From the NCBI GenBank assembly GCA_039815185.1, contig JBCBZT010000009.1, positions 96,001 to 160,000 of the forward strand: DNA of 64,000 nucleotides, written 5' to 3'. The stretch comes from Cyanobacteria bacterium P01_A01_bin.123 (GTDB lineage Bacteria > Cyanobacteriota > Cyanobacteriia > Phormidesmidales > Phormidesmidaceae). The translations under genes and the position numbers were made by a program. Below, piece by piece: positions 7,640 through 15,976 of this stretch (within the stretch, counting starts at the first letter, position 1; every line of letters starts with the position of its first letter). Under the pieces are notes generated by a model. The model searched no databases. It was not told where the DNA came from and worked only from the letters and a program-made list of their open reading frames with translations.

Positions 7640-8062
7640 TTATGAAGCTTGACGAAAGTTAGCCGTTTGGGGGACTAACCATCGCTGGGAAGCTTGCCAA
7701 AGATCGAAGACTAACATCTCAATCTCTTTAGGTAACTCGATGATCAGAATGCCTTCATTCTGGTGTGCTTCGGTGTGGCAACACTCGGCCCCAATCCAGT
7801 GACCGCGAACACACACTTCAGTAAACTCTGAATCGCCAATGGCTAAACTGAGCGTTTCTTGGCCGAGTCGAGCTGCGATCGTCTCTAAAACCGTCATCTG
7901 AGGCAACGCCGTCGAAACCAAAAATGACGCGGTGCTGGTTTGTACCGTAATTCGCTGTCCAGTGCGCAAGCTGAGCACCACTCGCTGGGTGATCAGGTCT
8001 TCCACACTCTGGTTGAGCCGTTCCATTTGAATTGCCGTTTCGGTGTAAGTGATTTTCAACAT
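7640..8062 (-). CDS. alr0857-family protein
   Basis: MLKITYTE...LNQSVEDLITQRVVLSLRTG...STASFL...EVCVRGHWI...EGILI pattern; sits opposite an All0854-like gene. Start taken at ATG 8062. Confidence 0.75.
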   Translation of the reverse strand: MLKITYTETAIQMERLNQSVEDLITQRVVLSLRTGQRITVQTSTASFLVSTALPQMTVLETIAARLGQETLSLAIGDSEFTEVCVRGHWIGAECCHTEAHQNEGILIIELPKEIEMLVFDLWQASQRWLVPQTANFRQAS

Positions 8063-8136: not shown

Positions 8137-8170
8137 CAAAACCCCCGCCTCCTAGTGGGAAGCGGGGGTT
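8137..8170 (-). terminator. Strong intrinsic terminator ending the putative RNA
   Basis: AACCCCCGCTTCC-CACTA-GGAGGCGGGGGTT followed by more T residues on the minus strand. Confidence 0.75.
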
Positions 8171-8772
8171 AGACTAACCGAAAGGGTTATCTAAACCTAA
8201 GTCAGTATCAGGATTCGAGACCTGATCTGCCCGCTTCGCCAAAGACGTCGCCCATCGCGATCGCCTGTGAGAAACTTAATGCCGTCTATGCCATGCCCAA
8301 ACGCTGTGACCACAGCATCAAAGCCAGAAGCTACAGCTTGGTAACGCGCTACAGATAGACCCATCCCGGTGGTGCCCGTTGATGGGGTAATGCCAAACGG
8401 GTTAGCCATGCAATAGCAGCCTGCTGGCAAACTGATTGTTTGCAGACGGTTTGCTGGCAACTGGTGACGCTGTAACGCCTGCGATAAAACTTGCGGCGAC
8501 CGGAGGAACCTAGACGCGATGGTCAAAAACCAACTCTCAAGGGCCGTTGCACTGTTGCCGAATAGACGCTCAAGCATTGCGCCCACGCCAAAGTGCATGC
8601 CGCTGCCAGCGGTGCAGTCTAGCTGTAGAGATGTGAACCAATGCTTCGACATGTTTCGGCCCTCAGTGATGATAGACAAACCTAAATGCTCAAAAGCCAG
8701 GTGCTCTAAAAGCCAAATACCTGGACACTTGAACGCTCCAATCAACCCAAACGACCTATTCTTAGGTTGACA
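8137..8772 (-). ncRNA. Putative large structured RNA (possibly GOLLD-like) with a tRNA-like T-arm near its 3' end
   Basis: Bounded by a sigma70 promoter and a terminator. Nested helices 8664-8657/8546-8539 and 8646-8639/8579-8572; T-arm-like hairpin ATCAGG-TCTCGAAT-CCTGAT at 8226-8207. Confidence 0.5.
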
Positions 8773-8815
8773 TTATTGATGCTACACGTGTATTACAAAA
8801 ATGTCTACACTGTAG
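8767..8815. promoter_or_regulatory. Overlapping divergent promoters with palindromic operator(s), candidate TrcR sites
   Basis: Minus strand: TAGACA(8807-8802)-17 nt-TAGCAT(8784-8779) with extended TG. Plus strand: TTGACA at 8767-8772. Palindromes TACACGTGTA (8783-8792) and CTACA-C-TGTAG (8805-8815). Confidence 0.6.
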
Positions 8816-8855: not shown

Positions 8856-9197
8856 ATGCAAACCCTGCCCCGAACCTCAACCACAGATATGGAAGTCACC
8901 AGCATCCGTTTAGAGCGCGATTTGAAGGATCGGCTCAAAGCGATCGCGGGGAATCGGGGGTACCAAGCGCTGATTCGAGATATTCTTTGGCTGTATGTGC
9001 AGCAAAAATCCGACGATCTTCAGCCTCAAATTCGTCGTCAAGATATTCGGGCTAGCCTAGATGCGATCGCCCATCAGGAAGAACGCTGTGCGCTCACTGG
9101 AATTGCGATTCAACCCCAAGACCCGATGCTGCTGGGATGGACAGTTACTGGAGAAATGGTGCCCCTCAGCATCGACAGCCTGACGCCTGATGCCTAG
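8856..9197 (+). CDS. trcR: Ribbon-helix-helix repressor, TrcR/All0854-like
   Basis: RHH pattern MEVTSIRLERDLKDRLKAIAGNRGYQALIRDILW; C-terminal CALTG..I...PMLLG; GGAGG RBS at 8840; divergent from an alr0857-family gene, as I recall for Anabaena all0854. Confidence 0.7.
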   Translation: MQTLPRTSTTDMEVTSIRLERDLKDRLKAIAGNRGYQALIRDILWLYVQQKSDDLQPQIRRQDIRASLDAIAHQEERCALTGIAIQPQDPMLLGWTVTGEMVPLSIDSLTPDA

Positions 9198-9481: not shown

Positions 9482-12400
9482 TCAGAGGCCATTGCCGATC
9501 AGGATAAAGGATGCCCAGTAGTAGGGATGACTCAAAGCAGCGTGGTTAGCATCAGCATCTCGACCGCCGTCAACGGTAATTGCAATGCCCGCTCGCTGAG
9601 CGTCTAAGACGGTTTGATCGCCGGTAATCAGGGCCATCTGTGCTGATTGCAGGGCTGCGGTTTTAGTCATACCCTGGTTCAGTGCATCGTAAAAGGCACC
9701 CATCAATATTTGGGTGCCGCGATCGCTCACCTGCCATAACGACGCCATTACCGCCTTGGCACCACTCACCTGGAACTGATAGCCCAACCCCAGCACCTCT
9801 TCCCCATTGCCCAAGCCACCCACCCCGGTTTCACAGGCGCTCAATACCACGAGGTCAACACCGTTGAGGGTCCAGTCTTCAATATCCCGTAGGGTAGGGG
9901 TGTCACCATTGCCAAACAGAATGAAAGAATCTTCAGGTACGCCGGGGACAAAGGCGGCGTGGGTGGCGAAATGCAGCACGGTGTATTCGTCCATAATCGG
10001 TCGCAGTGCTTCCAGACTAAAGTCAGCATCAAAAAATTTGCTGGTAGTGGGCAGGATTTCGACTTCATCCCCAGCTCCCGGTAACCCCTGAAACGTATAG
10101 GTATTCCCGTTCACTTCGGGGGTGTGAACCAGGCTTTCGTCGGCATAGGCGGCAGCCAGAATGCGAGGCTCGGCAGTATCTTGAGCGGTCAAGTCAGTGA
10201 CGGCAGTGGCGGTGATGTTTTGGATGCGATAGCGCTGAATCAACCACTGCTCACCATCATGGAGGGAGGCGAGGGGAATGTAGCGCAGTTGCCCATCGGG
10301 GGAGTAAATCAAGGTGTCTATCCCGGCTTCAGCTAGATCAGCTTCGATGGGTGCAATCAGCCAGTCGTAGAGTTGCTGGGCAGGTACTTCAATATCAGGA
10401 TCTCTGCTAGTGAGGGCTTCCCGGAAGGCCAAAATAGTGTGGTTGAGCTCCTCGCGCCCAATCGGAACAGTGCGGCGTAGCGGTGGCGAATCGGGGGTCG
10501 TGATCACCAGTTCAAGGCGATCTTCAAGCACCAGGGGATAGAAGATCGCCGCGTTGAGCTGTTGTAGTTCATCCCGCAGGCGATCCAATTCGTTCAGTCG
10601 CAGACTGGCATCTTGGGCTTCAAAGCTGAGTTGGGAAATCTGTTCACGGACTTCAGGGCTGCGAGAAAAATCCCGGAAATCACCATTAATGTCGTCGAGT
10701 AGGCTGGTGAGTTCGGCGATGCGCTGGTTTTGTTCGACGCTGCGATCGCCTTGGGGAATCGCTTTTAACTCGGCGAGGTCTTGTCCGATTTCAATGGCCG
10801 ATGCTTGTAGGGCGCTGTAACGAGCCAGGATCGCTTCTTCAGGACGCAGGTATTCAACTCCGCTTTCAGTTTGGGCACTGCGCTGTACGTCTTGCAGGTA
10901 GTCGTCGAGTTCTTGAATTTTCAGCAGATCGAGGACGCGCTGGGCTTCGATAATGCGGTCTTGTTGCAGCAGCAGGTCGGCCAGGAGGCGATAGGTCTCA
11001 GCCACAGTATCGGCATAGGACTGTTGTACATCAGTGTCGAGTCCCTGGATGTCCCCCCGAATCGCTTCCCGAATTTCGACAGAGGCTTTATAGAAGATAA
11101 TGGCCAGTTCTGGCTGGTCTTGAAGCGAAAAAAGTTGTCCCAGTCCACTCATTACGGAAGCCCTTTCCTCGCGACTCCCCGTTGCTTCTAGAATGGCGGC
11201 ACTTTGCTGATAGGCATCGAGTGCCTGTGGGTACTGCCCCAGTTGCACATAGGCATACCCCAAAATACCGAGTGTCCGACCTTCTCCAGTGCGATCGCCA
11301 ATGTCACGAGTAATGATGACGGTTTGTTGTGAGTAGTCAACGGCCTGCTGATATTGACCCAGCGCAAGATTTACAAACCCTAGATTGGATAAAATCGTCC
11401 CTTCAGTGCTGCGAGCGCCAATTTCATGGGCAATGGCTAAGGCCTGTTGGTAAAAGACAATGGCTTGTTCATACTGAGTTAGGGAAGCATAACCGCTCCC
11501 CAGATTGGCTAACGCATTGAGTTCTTGTTGACGAGCACCGATATTACGGGCGATCGCTAAGGATTGCTGATGGAAGTCAATGGCACGCTCATATTGACCC
11601 AGGTTACGGTAAGTTGCCCCTAGATTTCCGATGACGATTGCTTCGGCCTGGCGATCGCCGATGTCACGGGCAGTGGCTAACGACTGCTGATAAAAGTCGA
11701 TCGCCTGTTCGTACTGAGCTAAGGCAACATAAGCGCTCCCCAGGTTGCCCAAGGCGTTGAGTTCCCCCTGGGAGTAGTTGATATCGCGAGCGGCGGCTAA
11801 CGATTGTTGATAGAAATCAATGGCGCGCTCGTATTGACTTAGGTTGCGATAAGCCTCGCCGAGATTGCCCAGTACAAAAATCTCGACCTGCTGATTTTTG
11901 ATGTCGCGGGCAATCGCCAAAGATTGTTGGTAAACGTCAATGGCTTGCTCATATTGGGCTAGAGAAACATAGGCACTGCCCAGATGGTTCAGGGCTCTAG
12001 CTTCCCCGTCGCGATCGTTAAGGCTACGATGCAACGCTAAAGCTTGGGTAGAAAAATTAGCGGATTGGCGATGCTCCCCTTGCCGCAAAGCATTCCAACC
12101 CAAATGATTGAGAGCATTTGCTTCTTGTTGATCATCTTCAAGGGTTCGAGCCAGTTCTAACGCTTGCTCAAGTCGATCGGTGGCCTGACGATATTGACTT
12201 AAGGACGTGTAGGCATCTCCCAAGGCAAGTAATATCTTGACCTCTGTCTGTTGATCGCCAATCTCTTGAGTAAGGGTTAATGCTTGTTCAATCCGATCGA
12301 TGGCTTGCTCAGGTTGGTTAAGCGCGACATGGGTACCCCCTAAAGCAATGAGTATATTGATTTGCGTCTGGCGATCGCCCAGTTCTTGATACAGGGCTAA

Positions 12401-12694
12401 AGCGGCTTCCCAGGAGACGAGTGCTTCCTGAAACTGATTTTGGGTGTATTGCTGAATCCCCTGCTGCAACAAGCGATTCGCTTCAGCTTGGATCTCCCCT
12501 GCCTGGGCCTTCTGCTGCGGTACTGCCAACCATGGCTCTAACATCAAGGGCTCTCTGGATGACAATGGCAGTAGCCAAGACTGGGATGGGGTGATGCTGC
12601 TCTCTAGTCCAGCCTGCGACACTTGCGGCCAAAGTATTCCGGCGGCGGTAGTTAATGCCAAGAGCCATCCGAATTTGGTGCTGGGGTGGAGCAT
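9482..12694 (-). CDS. Secreted TPR-repeat protein with C-terminal CHAT (caspase-fold) protease domain
   Basis: N-terminal signal peptide, many TPRs, CHAT motifs LHFATHA (His), VVLSACETG (Cys), SLWQVSD and HPYYWASFILIGN. Confidence 0.92.
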   Translation of the reverse strand: MLHPSTKFGWLLALTTAAGILWPQVSQAGLESSITPSQSWLLPLSSREPLMLEPWLAVPQQKAQAGEIQAEANRLLQQGIQQYTQNQFQEALVSWEAALALYQELGDRQTQINILIALGGTHVALNQPEQAIDRIEQALTLTQEIGDQQTEVKILLALGDAYTSLSQYRQATDRLEQALELARTLEDDQQEANALNHLGWNALRQGEHRQSANFSTQALALHRSLNDRDGEARALNHLGSAYVSLAQYEQAIDVYQQSLAIARDIKNQQVEIFVLGNLGEAYRNLSQYERAIDFYQQSLAAARDINYSQGELNALGNLGSAYVALAQYEQAIDFYQQSLATARDIGDRQAEAIVIGNLGATYRNLGQYERAIDFHQQSLAIARNIGARQQELNALANLGSGYASLTQYEQAIVFYQQALAIAHEIGARSTEGTILSNLGFVNLALGQYQQAVDYSQQTVIITRDIGDRTGEGRTLGILGYAYVQLGQYPQALDAYQQSAAILEATGSREERASVMSGLGQLFSLQDQPELAIIFYKASVEIREAIRGDIQGLDTDVQQSYADTVAETYRLLADLLLQQDRIIEAQRVLDLLKIQELDDYLQDVQRSAQTESGVEYLRPEEAILARYSALQASAIEIGQDLAELKAIPQGDRSVEQNQRIAELTSLLDDINGDFRDFSRSPEVREQISQLSFEAQDASLRLNELDRLRDELQQLNAAIFYPLVLEDRLELVITTPDSPPLRRTVPIGREELNHTILAFREALTSRDPDIEVPAQQLYDWLIAPIEADLAEAGIDTLIYSPDGQLRYIPLASLHDGEQWLIQRYRIQNITATAVTDLTAQDTAEPRILAAAYADESLVHTPEVNGNTYTFQGLPGAGDEVEILPTTSKFFDADFSLEALRPIMDEYTVLHFATHAAFVPGVPEDSFILFGNGDTPTLRDIEDWTLNGVDLVVLSACETGVGGLGNGEEVLGLGYQFQVSGAKAVMASLWQVSDRGTQILMGAFYDALNQGMTKTAALQSAQMALITGDQTVLDAQRAGIAITVDGGRDADANHAALSHPYYWASFILIGNGL

Positions 12695-12814
12695 AGGGAG
12701 TAACCGTGAGTAGACAAAAGCGATTGTTTATTCACCATAGGTTATTCATTGCTAATGCAGACCAACAGGGGCATTAAGCCAGAGACTGTCGGCAACCCTT
12801 GGCAAGTCGTTGAA

Positions 12815-14596
12815 TCATTGTTCGTCTAGCAAAGCAAGAACTTGCTCAGCTTCAGCTATACGGTTTTGCTGTTGCAGCAGGTTGGCAAGGAGGCGATAAT
12901 CGTCAGCGATAGACTCCAGGAAGGATTGTTGCAAATCGCCATTGAGCCCGTTAATACCGTTGCGCATTGACTCACTCACCTCTACAAAGGCTTGCAGAAA
13001 CGCAATCGCCTCCTGTGGCTGATCCTGAGCATTAAAAACTTTACCGATGTTACTGAGCACATTGGCTTCTGTGGCCCGATCGCCAACTTCGCGGGCGATG
13101 GCCAACGATGGTTCATAAAAAGCAAGTGCCTGTTCATATTGACCTAGGTCGGCGTAGGCACTGCCTAAACTGCCTAGGGTAGCCCCCTCCCTCGCCCGAT
13201 CGCCCATTTCTTGGCTGATGACTAGCGATTGCTGGTGGAAGTCAATGGCACGCTCATATTGACCCAATTTACGGTAGGCCTGGCCTAAGTTATTGAGCGC
13301 CACGCCTTCCCCAACACGGGTGCCAATTTCTCGGCTAATGACTAAATACTGTTGATAAAAATCAGCGGCCTGCTCATATTGTTCGAGGCTGAGATGGGCA
13401 TTGCCCAAACCATTCAAAGCACGGCCTTCTCCAGGGCGATTACCGATTTCGCGGTCAATGGCTAAGCGTTGCGCGTAGAAATCAATCGCCTGTTGATATT
13501 GTCCGAGGTTGTTATACACCTTGCCCAAACCACCTAGCGCTTGGCTCTCCCCAGCGCGATCGCTGATTTCCTGGGCAATCGTCAAAGACTGCTGATGGAA
13601 GGTAATGGCTTGTCCATATTGACCTAGATCGTTATAGGATTCGCCGAGATTGCTCAACGCGCTACTTTCCCCAGAACGGTTGCCCGTTTCGCGAGTAATG
13701 GCGAGCTCTTGCTCATGAAAATTGATTGCCTGCTGATATTGTCCGAGCTCCAGATAAACACTGCCTAAATTACCCAGGGCACGGCCTTCTCCGTCGCGAT
13801 CGCCAATTTCCTGCGCAATCGCTAGGTGCTGCTGAAGGAAGTCAATCGCCGATTGGTATTGCCCCAGCCTAAAGTAAGTGGCGCCCAAATTGCCTAAGGA
13901 GGTAGCTTCCCCATGACGATCACTGATATCTTGGGCGATCGCCCAAGATTGCTCATGGAGATCAATTGCCTGTTGATATTGCCCCAGACTGATGTAAATA
14001 ATGCCCAAATTACCCAAGACACTGCCTTCTAATTGACGATCACCAACTTCTTGGGCGATTGCTAAAGATTGCTGGAAGAACTCGATAGCTTGCTCATAGC
14101 GGCTGAGTCTTACGTATGCTCCCCCAAGATTATTTAAGGCAGAGCTTTCCCGGTCTTGATCGCCAATTTCACGCGCAATCATTAAAGACTGCTGATAAAA
14201 CTCAATAGCAGTCTCATACTGACTAAGGCTGAGATATCCGTTCCCCAGAGCATTCAGAGCACGGCTCTCTCCAGTGCGGTCTTGAATCTCCTGGTAGTTC
14301 GTTAGTGCTTGCTCCCATGAAATCAGCGCCTCACGAAACTGGCCACGACGATATTGCTGAATCCCCAACTCTAGTAGGCGATCTGCTTCAGTTTGTTGAT
14401 CCGCTGCCTGGGCTAACACTTGCGGTACTGCTGGGTGTGAAGCGACCAACGCTGATTTAGCTATCGACGATTCCGCCAGCGAAGAGTGGCCTAATGTTGT
14501 TGCCCCCTCTGACGCTGCTTGTGTTCCTTGAGGCCATAGTATTCCGGCTACGGTTAGTGCCAGAAGCCATCTGCGTTTATTGTTGATATGAGTCAT
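12815..14596 (-). CDS. Secreted TPR-repeat protein, CHAT-less paralog of 9482-12694
   Basis: Similar signal peptide (WLLALT..GILWPQ) and TPR array; ends at LLQQQNRIAEAEQVLALL, just before the CHAT region of the paralog. Confidence 0.9.
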   Translation of the reverse strand: MTHINNKRRWLLALTVAGILWPQGTQAASEGATTLGHSSLAESSIAKSALVASHPAVPQVLAQAADQQTEADRLLELGIQQYRRGQFREALISWEQALTNYQEIQDRTGESRALNALGNGYLSLSQYETAIEFYQQSLMIAREIGDQDRESSALNNLGGAYVRLSRYEQAIEFFQQSLAIAQEVGDRQLEGSVLGNLGIIYISLGQYQQAIDLHEQSWAIAQDISDRHGEATSLGNLGATYFRLGQYQSAIDFLQQHLAIAQEIGDRDGEGRALGNLGSVYLELGQYQQAINFHEQELAITRETGNRSGESSALSNLGESYNDLGQYGQAITFHQQSLTIAQEISDRAGESQALGGLGKVYNNLGQYQQAIDFYAQRLAIDREIGNRPGEGRALNGLGNAHLSLEQYEQAADFYQQYLVISREIGTRVGEGVALNNLGQAYRKLGQYERAIDFHQQSLVISQEMGDRAREGATLGSLGSAYADLGQYEQALAFYEPSLAIAREVGDRATEANVLSNIGKVFNAQDQPQEAIAFLQAFVEVSESMRNGINGLNGDLQQSFLESIADDYRLLANLLQQQNRIAEAEQVLALLDEQ

Positions 14597-14676
14597 AGGA
14601 GCAATGGAATAGAAAGTGATGGGTAGCGGAGTAGATGCTTAGCAAGGGGACTATCTATCTCGCTATTGATCTACTG

Positions 14677-14702
14677 ATTCACATTCAGGTTTAGTGATTC
14701 CT
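14677..14702 (-). promoter_or_regulatory. GGAAT-N15-TGAA motif upstream of the TPR gene
   Basis: AGGAAT-14 nt-GTGAAT; same spacing as the three LRR-gene sites. Confidence 0.45.
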
Positions 14703-14839
14703 GCCTAATGACTATTTTCAAAGTTCAAGTCCAAGATTTTTGGCTTTAAAGGTCAGGTCTGTCTCCAATTACGATTGTGTCTATCCTCAAAGTGATGAAT
14801 CCTGATAATGAGACAACGATATTCAGGGTCACATCTTAT

Positions 14840-15976
14840 CTAGGGACGATGACTTGATACCCAGTGTTGGAGGACTTGTCGCCAACCCATGGGCTGAATG
14901 CGAAAGGGGGTCGAATCTGGATGCCGAAACAGACAAGGGATCAGATGAGCAGAGGGATAGGCTAAATGCTGTTCTAGTTTGAGGTGATCGCAGGCGGTTT
15001 GCAAAGCATCCTGCACGTCCTGATGGGCAACGAGAGACTGGAGAAACTGGACCAGAACATTTTTGGCGACTTGGTTATGAATCGGCTCACGCATGATGGC
15101 AACTTGACTCAAACCCATTGCAATCAGCGCTTCAGCAACGGCTAAGCCCGAGCAAGAATTGAACAGGACAAACTGTAAACCGTTGGTCTGGGCGGTTTGC
15201 AGATAGGGTTGCAATTCTCGGATGGCAAGTGTCGTTTGGGGCGCGACATAAGTGTGTCCAGCAACGACATCTGCTTCGTTACTGTGGCCTGCGAAAAAGA
15301 GGACATCCCAACCTGTTGAATCAGCGATCGCTTCGCATATCGTTTGCTTCAAAGCACCCCTGTCCTGATTGGGTGTCCAACCGACAAAGGTGATGTCCAC
15401 TAGCGATTGTAGGGATTGTAATGCGAGGCGATCGCCTGCAAAATCAAGCCCGGTTTCATCTCCCAAAATTACCAGCACTCGCGGTTTAGGTCGCCCGGGC
15501 TTGGGGGCTTGGGGCGCAACTCGAATGGTGTTGGGTGCTCTAGCAATGCGAATGTGGGTGCTACCAAACTCGGAGCCGATTTCCCAGCTTTCCCAGGGCA
15601 GCCAGGCTATTTCAATCGGTTCACAGGTGAGGAATAAATCAATAGCGGTATTTCGTGCTGCTGTGCTGAGGGCTTTACGAATGTCCGTAAGTTCCTCCTG
15701 CCGCAACCAACGGTGAAACTTCGAGAGTAGCCAAGCTTCGGCTTGTACCAGTTGACTATGTAAATCTAGGTTAGCCGTGTTGACCTGCCCTAAAGTCCCC
15801 ATCCGCCTTGGCCCAACCTGTTGATAGAAGTTTAGGTAGGTCTGCTGCCATTGCTGGTAGTGAATTTCCAAATCTGTAGGATAGGGCATCTGGGCTTGGA
15901 GCCGTTGCCCCCGTTTCCAGATCAGTTCAAATCGGCAAATGCCCTCGATTCTTTGAATGCTGAGTCGGTAGATCAT
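14840..15976 (-). CDS. CHAT domain protein, probably a C-terminally truncated CHAT-CHASE2 protein
   Basis: LPWESW, RVLVILGDETGLDF, FFAGHS (His), LFNSCSG (Cys), MREPIHNQVA; stops shortly after the CHAT domain. Confidence 0.8.
   Translation of the reverse strand: MIYRLSIQRIEGICRFELIWKRGQRLQAQMPYPTDLEIHYQQWQQTYLNFYQQVGPRRMGTLGQVNTANLDLHSQLVQAEAWLLSKFHRWLRQEELTDIRKALSTAARNTAIDLFLTCEPIEIAWLPWESWEIGSEFGSTHIRIARAPNTIRVAPQAPKPGRPKPRVLVILGDETGLDFAGDRLALQSLQSLVDITFVGWTPNQDRGALKQTICEAIADSTGWDVLFFAGHSNEADVVAGHTYVAPQTTLAIRELQPYLQTAQTNGLQFVLFNSCSGLAVAEALIAMGLSQVAIMREPIHNQVAKNVLVQFLQSLVAHQDVQDALQTACDHLKLEQHLAYPSAHLIPCLFRHPDSTPFRIQPMGWRQVLQHWVSSHRP

What the first reader, a model, noticed from the sequence alone, without database searches (positions are those of the whole stretch)
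8137..8772. Candidate ~630-nt structured RNA with tRNA-like 3' arm, under a TrcR-like repressor
Seen: a complete minus-strand transcription unit, from promoter TAGACA-17-TAGCAT (predicted start ~8772) to a strong terminator (8170-8137). It contains nested helices: GAGGGCCG 8664-8657 with CGGCCCTT 8546-8539, AAGCATTG 8646-8639 with CAATGCTT 8579-8572, and an inner CCGCT-GGC-AGCGG hairpin. It also has a T-arm-like hairpin ATCAGG-TCTCGAAT-CCTGAT (8226-8207) and a further hairpin at 8193-8171. Established, from memory: Anabaena TrcR (All0854) represses a tRNA array and translation-stress genes, and GOLLD RNAs are large RNAs linked to tRNA arrays and HNH genes. Inference: a translation-stress-inducible large RNA, perhaps a diverged GOLLD relative or a new class, forming a module with the alr0857-family protein. 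A TTG-start 182-codon frame (8197-8745) with no recognisable motif spans it, so a coding role is not excluded.
Basis: partly seen in the sequence, partly recalled or inferred. Interest (0 to 1): 0.8.

Follow-up and report, generated by a model that had tools for sequence, protein, structure and literature searches.

The report
Translated leader switch before stress gene
This is not a giant stand-alone RNA but the front end of a stress-gene message, in which a fast-changing reading frame ends inside a conserved RNA fold that competes with a transcription stop signal, so ribosome progress probably decides whether the genes behind it are copied.

Summary
The promoter, helices and terminator are present; the GOLLD/tRNA-like reading fails. 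Across cyanobacteria only the last ~110 nt (8243-8134, minus) are conserved: an antiterminator GAAGCGGG (8237-8230) complementary to the terminator's 5' arm, two hairpins and the terminator. The 'T-arm' is hairpin 1, with an unconserved loop. The reading frame is conserved: open >=50 codons in 96 of 99 copies (11 and 4 in the other frames), always stopping before the terminator, while its peptide drifts (dN/dS 0.4-1.0). It corresponds to Anabaena asr0855, the TrcR-repressed leader of alr0856 (HNH)-alr0857. The element matches 66 of 141 genomes, also in extra copies before HNH genes that head tRNA arrays, including orf1-all8564 of Anabaena PCC 7120. Best reading: a ribosome-coupled transcription attenuator (about 0.7), probably opened by slowed translation (0.45; reverse direction 0.25). 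The direction is unresolved: folding models do not settle it, and published unstressed RNA-seq shows no drop after the terminator. No Rfam match, and no description in the papers searched. This scan reached the same reading earlier on another genome (e1-7777125). New variant of a known kind.

The parts
8856..9197 (+). trcR-like ribbon-helix-helix repressor gene, divergent from the leader
   Evidence: Weak RHH_4 Pfam hit, E 0.065; homologues in 247 of 401 class genomes; same arrangement as all0854/asr0855 in PMC10272220. Identity to All0854 itself was not aligned; 71-73% to Nostoc/Anabaena homologues.
8779..8809 (-). Promoter (-35 TAGACA 8807-8802, -10 TAGCAT 8784-8779) overlapped by TrcR-type repeats
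   Evidence: plus-strand 8779-8796 matches the published TrcR-protected motif at 16 of 18 bases (compared by eye); a -10 box motif was found upstream in 88 of 99 element copies
8197..8652 (-). Leader ORF (asr0855 counterpart): probable start ATG 8652 with GAGG 8664-8661 upstream, 151 codons, stop TAG 8199-8197; open back to TTG 8745
   Evidence: The ATG aligns with the start of the same-genus leader; a 2-base loss at 8734 in one low-depth contig would break only the TTG extension (weak); frame conserved in 96 of 99 copies
8539..8664 (-).
   Evidence: z -2.8; keeps -50.6 against -52.0 kcal/mol with four close-strain changes; not kept in the same-genus leader alignment
8230..8237 (-). Antiterminator strand GAAGCGGG, read as Arg-Ser-Gly in the leader frame; pairs with 8166-8159
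8204..8228 (-).
   Evidence: All 7 model pairs show changes on both sides; T-loop-like string in 2 of 99
8167..8197 (-). Hairpin H2, starting at the stop codon and, in this copy, covering the first four bases of the terminator
   Evidence: Fold; the linker folds better than its shuffles in 92 of 99 copies
8137..8170 (-). Intrinsic terminator, arms 8170-8158 and 8152-8140, short U run
   Evidence: pair I1; 94.9% of cells paired over 100 rows; not listed by the simple terminator scan
7640..8062 (-). alr0857-family gene (140 aa, function unknown), the gene behind the switch; the HNH gene found between them in many species is absent here
   Evidence: NCBIfam NF045647, E 2.6e-36; Atlas PF28246

Best explanation
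A two-lock stress switch. Lock 1 (shown in Anabaena, inferred here): TrcR represses the promoter and declines under translation stress. Lock 2 (anatomy shown, working inferred): a ribosome-coupled transcription attenuator. Before the terminator's 3' arm is made, GAAGCGGG pairs with its 5' arm and closes a three-way junction with H1 and H2, which blocks the terminator kinetically. A ribosome that keeps up with RNA polymerase runs through the antiterminator and H1 and sits on the stop codon at the foot of H2; this dismantles the junction, the terminator forms and transcription stops at about 8137. If the first ribosome is slowed or stalled anywhere in the 50-200 codons upstream, the junction survives and the alr0857 (and HNH) genes are transcribed. 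The long, sequence-free ORF is a test track that sums up stalling, not a conserved peptide. Odds: ribosome-coupled attenuator of either direction about 0.7; this direction 0.45.
For: Frame reading AGC GGG as Ser-Gly is open >=50 codons in 96 of 99 copies against 11 and 4 in the other frames; it stops before the terminator in 99 of 99 (57 and 55), at +33 or +36 in 60 of 96. Antiterminator helix: 88.5% of cells paired, 27 double changes against 10.7 in shuffles, 0 of 500, better than all slid registers on pairing. All 9 copies with a changed base in the terminator core keep the pair, 4 by a double change and 5 by G-U. Antiterminator-to-terminator distance is 61-72 nt in the middle 80% although ORFs span 50-196 codons. 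The junction is the favoured fold before the 3' arm appears in 90 of 99, and a footprint on the antiterminator abolishes it in all 99. In this copy a footprint at the stop shifts the balance 4.4 kcal/mol towards the terminator. Leader dN/dS 0.39, 0.71, 0.81, 1.04 in four clades against 0.02-0.06 for trcR; double changes alter the peptide (Ser-Glu, Ser-Arg). asr0855-alr0856-alr0857 are TrcR-repressed, and asr0855 and alr0857 are reported as chloramphenicol-induced. Induction by stalling is the usual direction for such leaders.
Against: In unstressed Anabaena, expression does not fall after the terminator: asr0855 23 -> 215, alr0856 97 -> 701, alr0857 47 -> 397 in wild type -> trcR deletion. That fits read-through by default unless the short terminated RNA is lost or unstable. 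A footprint at the stop codon does not remove the antiterminator in folding (87 of 99 keep it); family-wide it favours the antiterminator in 51 and the terminator in 37 of 99, and barrier estimates barely change. The terminator is 7.3 kcal/mol more stable at equilibrium, so the switch must be kinetic, which was not simulated. The outer antiterminator pairs are broken in 20-38% of rows, and double changes come from few independent lineages. Whether ribosomes keep pace with RNA polymerase in cyanobacteria was not settled by the passages read. No RNA data for this organism.
Confidence: 0.45

Rival explanations
1. Same attenuator, reverse direction. H1 is an anti-antiterminator. A ribosome reaching, or lingering on, the stop codon melts H1's 3' strand; the freed GGU extends the antiterminator to a near copy of the terminator's 3' arm and gives read-through. 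Without a timely ribosome the short antiterminator is displaced and transcription stops. It would be a Rho-free polarity or release-factor sensor.
For: With a footprint at the stop, H1's 5' strand covers the terminator's toehold in 67 of 99 copies against 20 without; the extension pairs are possible in 84, 91 and 81 of 99. The stop lies 4 nt after H1 in 58 of 99. No drop after the terminator in unstressed Anabaena. Cyanobacteria lack Rho.
Against: This window's copy cannot make the extension, and its balance shifts towards the terminator. The extension pairs show almost no double changes, whereas H1 does. Shutting off stress genes when translation fails runs against their induction by chloramphenicol.
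Confidence: 0.25
2. The three-way junction is a riboswitch-like or protein-binding element whose closing stem competes with the terminator; the ORF is kept only to protect or time the RNA.
For: The architecture equals an ON-type switch: closing stem shared with the terminator, conserved junction bases.
Against: H1 and H2 loops and the H2 stem vary freely; several of the conserved junction bases are the stop codon; the fixed frame and stop position need a ribosome to make sense.
Confidence: 0.1
3. An ordinary, fast-evolving small gene followed by a leaky terminator that sets a fixed ratio; the complementary 8-mer merely weakens termination.
For: Nostoc leader dN/dS is 0.39, so some protein-level constraint is possible; asr0855 is listed as a clade-restricted hypothetical protein; the downstream/leader ratio is similar in wild type and trcR deletion.
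Against: The peptide has no Pfam or NCBIfam match, is 35% identical even within the genus and varies fourfold in length, while frame, stop position and pairing are kept in extra copies at unrelated loci.
Confidence: 0.12
4. The first reader's large non-coding RNA (GOLLD relative or new class) with a tRNA-like arm.
For: Whole-region z -3.9; leader bodies fold somewhat better than shuffles, mean z -1.5 against -0.1 for downstream genes, and synonymous sites are less diverged than in neighbours in two clades; HNH and tRNA-array context is real.
Against: No Rfam match; the body finds no DNA homologue beyond the promoter in 60 relatives; length varies about threefold; conserved open frame; T-loop not conserved.
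Confidence: 0.04

Closest known systems
Anabaena PCC 7120 trcR (all0854) / asr0855-alr0856-alr0857 (PMC10272220)
   Same: Divergent repressor, TrcR-box promoter, small leading ORF, alr0857-family gene; all three genes rise 7-9-fold without TrcR
   Different: The paper treats asr0855 as a hypothetical protein; 'attenuat' does not occur in its main text. Here the leader has 151 codons rather than 83 and the HNH gene is absent.
orf1-all8564 upstream of the Anabaena trn L-array (PMC8421152)
   Same: Carries the same element (62 bits) with an in-frame leader ORF ending Ser-Gly-Arg...stop; all8564 is induced by chloramphenicol
   Different: orf1 is only drawn in a supplementary figure; no switch is described in the passages read. 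The tRNA array has its own promoter, so the switch need not gate the tRNAs.
Antibiotic-responsive leader attenuators of Bacillus subtilis: vmlR, bmrCD, tlrB (PMC9226507, PMC13689557)
   Same: Leader ORF, antiterminator overlapping an intrinsic terminator, response to translation inhibitors
   Different: vmlR uses a 3-codon ORF inside an anti-antiterminator and needs the stalled ribosome for induction. Here the ORF has 50-200 codons, runs through the antiterminator itself, ends in a three-way junction and sits under a second, repressor-level control; no sequence relation was tested.
Amino-acid attenuators of the trpL type (recalled, not from a call)
   Same: A ribosome at the leader stop codon would favour termination
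   Different: No run of control codons; only mild Cys, Ser and rare-Arg enrichment
GOLLD and ROOL RNAs (PMC12286853)
   Same: Neighbourhood of tRNA clusters
   Different: They are large, covarying over their length, non-coding and phage-borne; none of this holds here

Membership tests
GOLLD/ROOL large RNA | Match to the Rfam model | tested here: not met
   No match at gathering score or up to E 10; none in six homologous loci
GOLLD/ROOL large RNA | Conserved ornate structure over several hundred nucleotides | tested here: not met
   The body finds no DNA match in 60 relatives and aligns poorly within the genus; the conserved part is about 110 nt
GOLLD/ROOL large RNA | Non-coding | tested here: not met
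   Open frame in 96 of 99 copies
tRNA-like RNA (tRNA, Y RNA, tmRNA arm) | Conserved 5-bp T stem with 7-nt T loop and an acceptor-like stem | tested here: not met
   6-bp stem, 8-nt loop, T-loop-like in 2 of 99; ARAGORN negative
Ribosome-coupled transcription attenuator | Intrinsic terminator between promoter and structural gene | tested here: met
   termination itself not measured
Ribosome-coupled transcription attenuator | Mutually exclusive antiterminator with comparative support | tested here: met
   support moderate, few independent changes
Ribosome-coupled transcription attenuator | Leader ORF overlapping the switch in fixed frame and position | tested here: met
Ribosome-coupled transcription attenuator | Leader is translated in the cell | not testable with these tools
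   No RNA or ribosome data listed; inferred from frame conservation and in-frame indels
Ribosome-coupled transcription attenuator | Read-through changes with translation state, and in which direction | tested here: inconclusive
Arrest-peptide or control-codon attenuator | Conserved peptide or codon run | tested here: not met
   dN/dS 0.39-1.04; Ser codon AGC in 90 of 96 and double changes alter the residues
TrcR regulon | TrcR-type repeats over the -10 box | tested here: met
   binding not testable here
alr0857 family (downstream gene) | NCBIfam NF045647 above cut-off | tested here: met
   124 bits against 75

The most novel reading that the evidence does not exclude
A cyanobacteria-wide attenuator class that measures translation with a long, sequence-free leader ORF ending in a three-way RNA junction: a general gauge of ribosome-polymerase distance or of dwell at the stop codon in bacteria without Rho. 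It is wired in series with TrcR and travels with HNH/tRNA-array cassettes. It would be a native reporter of whether transcription and translation are coupled in cyanobacteria.
Probability: 0.45. Interest if true: 0.75.

Novelty: new variant of a known kind. Interest (0 to 1): 0.57.

Why it matters
It would add a second, direct sensor of ribosome trouble to the TrcR stress response, in a phylum for which the paper searches here returned no leader-ORF attenuator. It would explain two unexplained ORFs of a model strain (asr0855, orf1 of all8564), and it can be tested at once in Anabaena PCC 7120. The direction of the switch bears on whether cyanobacterial ribosomes keep pace with RNA polymerase. 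It also shows that a 50-200-codon 'hypothetical protein' can be kept for its frame and stop position only.

Tried and rejected
Rfam and ARAGORN on the stretch: nothing. DNA search of 61 genomes with the 694-nt region: only promoter matches in 2 of 60 relatives. tRNA-like arm rejected. Arrest peptide rejected; a Gly-Ile-Asp string occurs in 18 of 96 leaders at varying positions and is unexplained. Folding with ribosome footprints and barrier estimates did not fix the direction. Sequencing runs: no RNA holder listed; four DNA contig sets gave only strain differences (12 further differences were not shown). One viral-contig pattern hit is a chance match inside a gene, without a terminator. The Alr0857 protein gave no informative solved relative or fold neighbour, so its function stays open. 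Papers seen: PMC10272220 parts 1-3 of 8, passages and supplement rows (file 5 unreadable); PMC8421152 passages, section 22 and part 1 of 400 of a supplement cut in storage, so its chloramphenicol RNA-seq table could not be seen and could decide the direction; passages only of PMC9226507, PMC13689557, 10.1101/2025.01.31.635925, PMC7858274, PMC13323073, PMC13613805, 10.64898/2025.12.20.695498, PMC12286853, PMC2823733; PMC5737381 gave no hits for the terms. 'Not in print' rests on searches of an open-access library only.

Full report
Observation. Rfam and ARAGORN find nothing in it.

Context. The divergent gene 8856-9197 is a TrcR-like repressor with homologues in 247 of 401 class genomes. The gene after the terminator is of the alr0857 family. 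In Anabaena PCC 7120, TrcR binds a motif over its -10 box and represses asr0855, alr0856 (HNH) and alr0857, and its level falls under chloramphenicol (PMC10272220). Of 161 distinct trcR loci collected, 125 have an alr0857-like gene and 87 an HNH gene on the divergent side within the DNA held. The finding therefore occupies the place of asr0855.

What is conserved. The DNA of the body finds no relative in 60 genomes apart from the promoter. The 3' end is conserved: GAAGCGGG, hairpin H1, a linker with hairpin H2, and a terminator. A model built from 43 copies gave full-length matches in 76 of 99 chosen sources (chosen from the 161 loci, leaving out near-identical Nostoc copies and most loci without the neighbour genes; the training rows match by construction). 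It matched 66 of 141 class genomes and 32 of 121 phylum genomes, with only one weak match among the 80 genomes of families f42-f48. The window's genome has four full copies. Of 57 loci picked mostly as copies away from trcR, 50 have an HNH or alr0857-like gene behind the element, and 14 of 53 scanned show five or more tRNAs within 2 kb. One copy in this genome heads HNH, alr0857-like and a 16-tRNA array. The array has its own TrcR-type promoter. The Anabaena plasmid copy lies between the all8564 promoter and all8564 (62 bits), on an ORF drawn as orf1 in a supplementary figure of PMC8421152.

Pairing. On a 100-row alignment (one row is an antisense artefact, kept and dropped in scripts), H1 and the terminator show 102 double changes against 30 in shuffles; the alignment was fitted to these two helices. 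The antiterminator helix was not in the model: 88.5% paired, 27 double changes against 10.7, 0 of 500 shuffles. Its five core pairs are kept in 96-99 rows; its outer pairs are broken in 20-38. All nine copies with a changed core base in the terminator arm keep the pair, but the double changes come from few lineages. H1's loop is T-loop-like in 2 of 99 copies, so the tRNA likeness is accidental. Both close-strain differences inside the element fall on unpaired bases.

The reading frame. The frame that reads AGC GGG as Ser-Gly is open for at least 50 codons in 96 of 99 copies (11 and 4 for the other frames), covers a median 86% of the leader and always stops before the terminator; two copies use another frame and one has a shorter open stretch. 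The stop lies at +33 or +36 in 60 of 96, and at +36 here. Lengths run from 50 to 196 codons. dN/dS is 0.39-1.04 against 0.02-0.06 for trcR and 0.07-0.26 for HNH and alr0857; a close strain differs by 12 amino-acid-changing and 7 silent codons among the differences shown (three Nostoc rows with a variant motif contributed nothing). The terminal Ser-Gly-Arg follows from the RNA: double changes turn it into Ser-Glu or Ser-Arg. The start is probably ATG 8652, which aligns with the same-genus leader.

How it works. Before the terminator's 3' arm is made, the antiterminator closes a three-way junction in 90 of 99 copies; the terminator is 7.3 kcal/mol more stable once complete. So the choice is kinetic, and the ORF brings a ribosome through the antiterminator and H1 to the foot of H2. 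I infer a ribosome-coupled attenuator (about 0.7). The direction is open. For opening under stress: the regulon's logic, the usual direction of such leaders, and a 4.4 kcal/mol shift towards the terminator for this copy with a ribosome at the stop. For the reverse: family-wide, a ribosome at the stop lets H1's 5' strand extend the antiterminator in 67 of 99 copies and favours it in 51 against 37, and unstressed Anabaena shows more signal after the terminator than before it, 97 and 47 against 23 in wild type and 701 and 397 against 215 without TrcR. Loss of a short terminated RNA could also give that pattern. Barrier estimates do not separate the two.

Comparison and novelty. It works like the vmlR/bmrCD/tlrB leaders but differs in the long sequence-free ORF that crosses the antiterminator, in the junction and in the TrcR layer. 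It is not GOLLD, ROOL or a tRNA mimic (membership table). I found no Rfam family and no description in nine searches of the open-access library; supplements that could not be read may bear on this. I recorded the attenuator reading, before one search showed that this scan had reached the same reading on another genome; that note is not independent support. Verdict: real, a new variant of a known kind, interest 0.57.

Noticed in passing
G000:C96:88714-91837 (L201): Second full cassette in this genome: TrcR-box promoter, leader ORF, element, HNH, alr0857-like gene, then a 16-tRNA array with its own TrcR-type promoter, running to the contig end.
   Followed up: partly
G000:C14:66109-66212 (L203): Third copy with a matched change in all three strands, before HNH and alr0857-like genes, two tRNAs and an ORF that by recall resembles RtcB.
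   Followed up: partly
G000:C121:178680-178784 (L202): Fourth copy followed directly by a promoter and a lone tRNA-Asp, apparently a decayed cassette.
   Followed up: partly
L008:15-296: Here the trcR-linked cassette itself is followed by tRNA genes, linking the chromosomal and array-type copies.
   Followed up: no
leader bodies, alignment A3 loci: Synonymous sites are less diverged than in neighbouring genes in two clades (0.27-0.32 against 0.46-0.59), and bodies fold better than shuffles (mean z -1.5), with rare AGA, ATA and AGG codons enriched 2-3-fold against this genome's usage. Unexplained RNA-level constraint.
   Followed up: partly
L123-L129, L133, L134, L138: Members of the window's family keep trcR and alr0857 neighbours but gave no model match; some show decayed terminator-like remnants.
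   Followed up: no
window 9482-15976: Cluster of TPR-repeat genes, two with C-terminal domains that by recall look like CHAT proteases; not part of the finding.
   Followed up: no
L012, L022, L024, L051: Mobile-element-like insertions lie between trcR, the element and the HNH gene in several filamentous genera.
   Followed up: no
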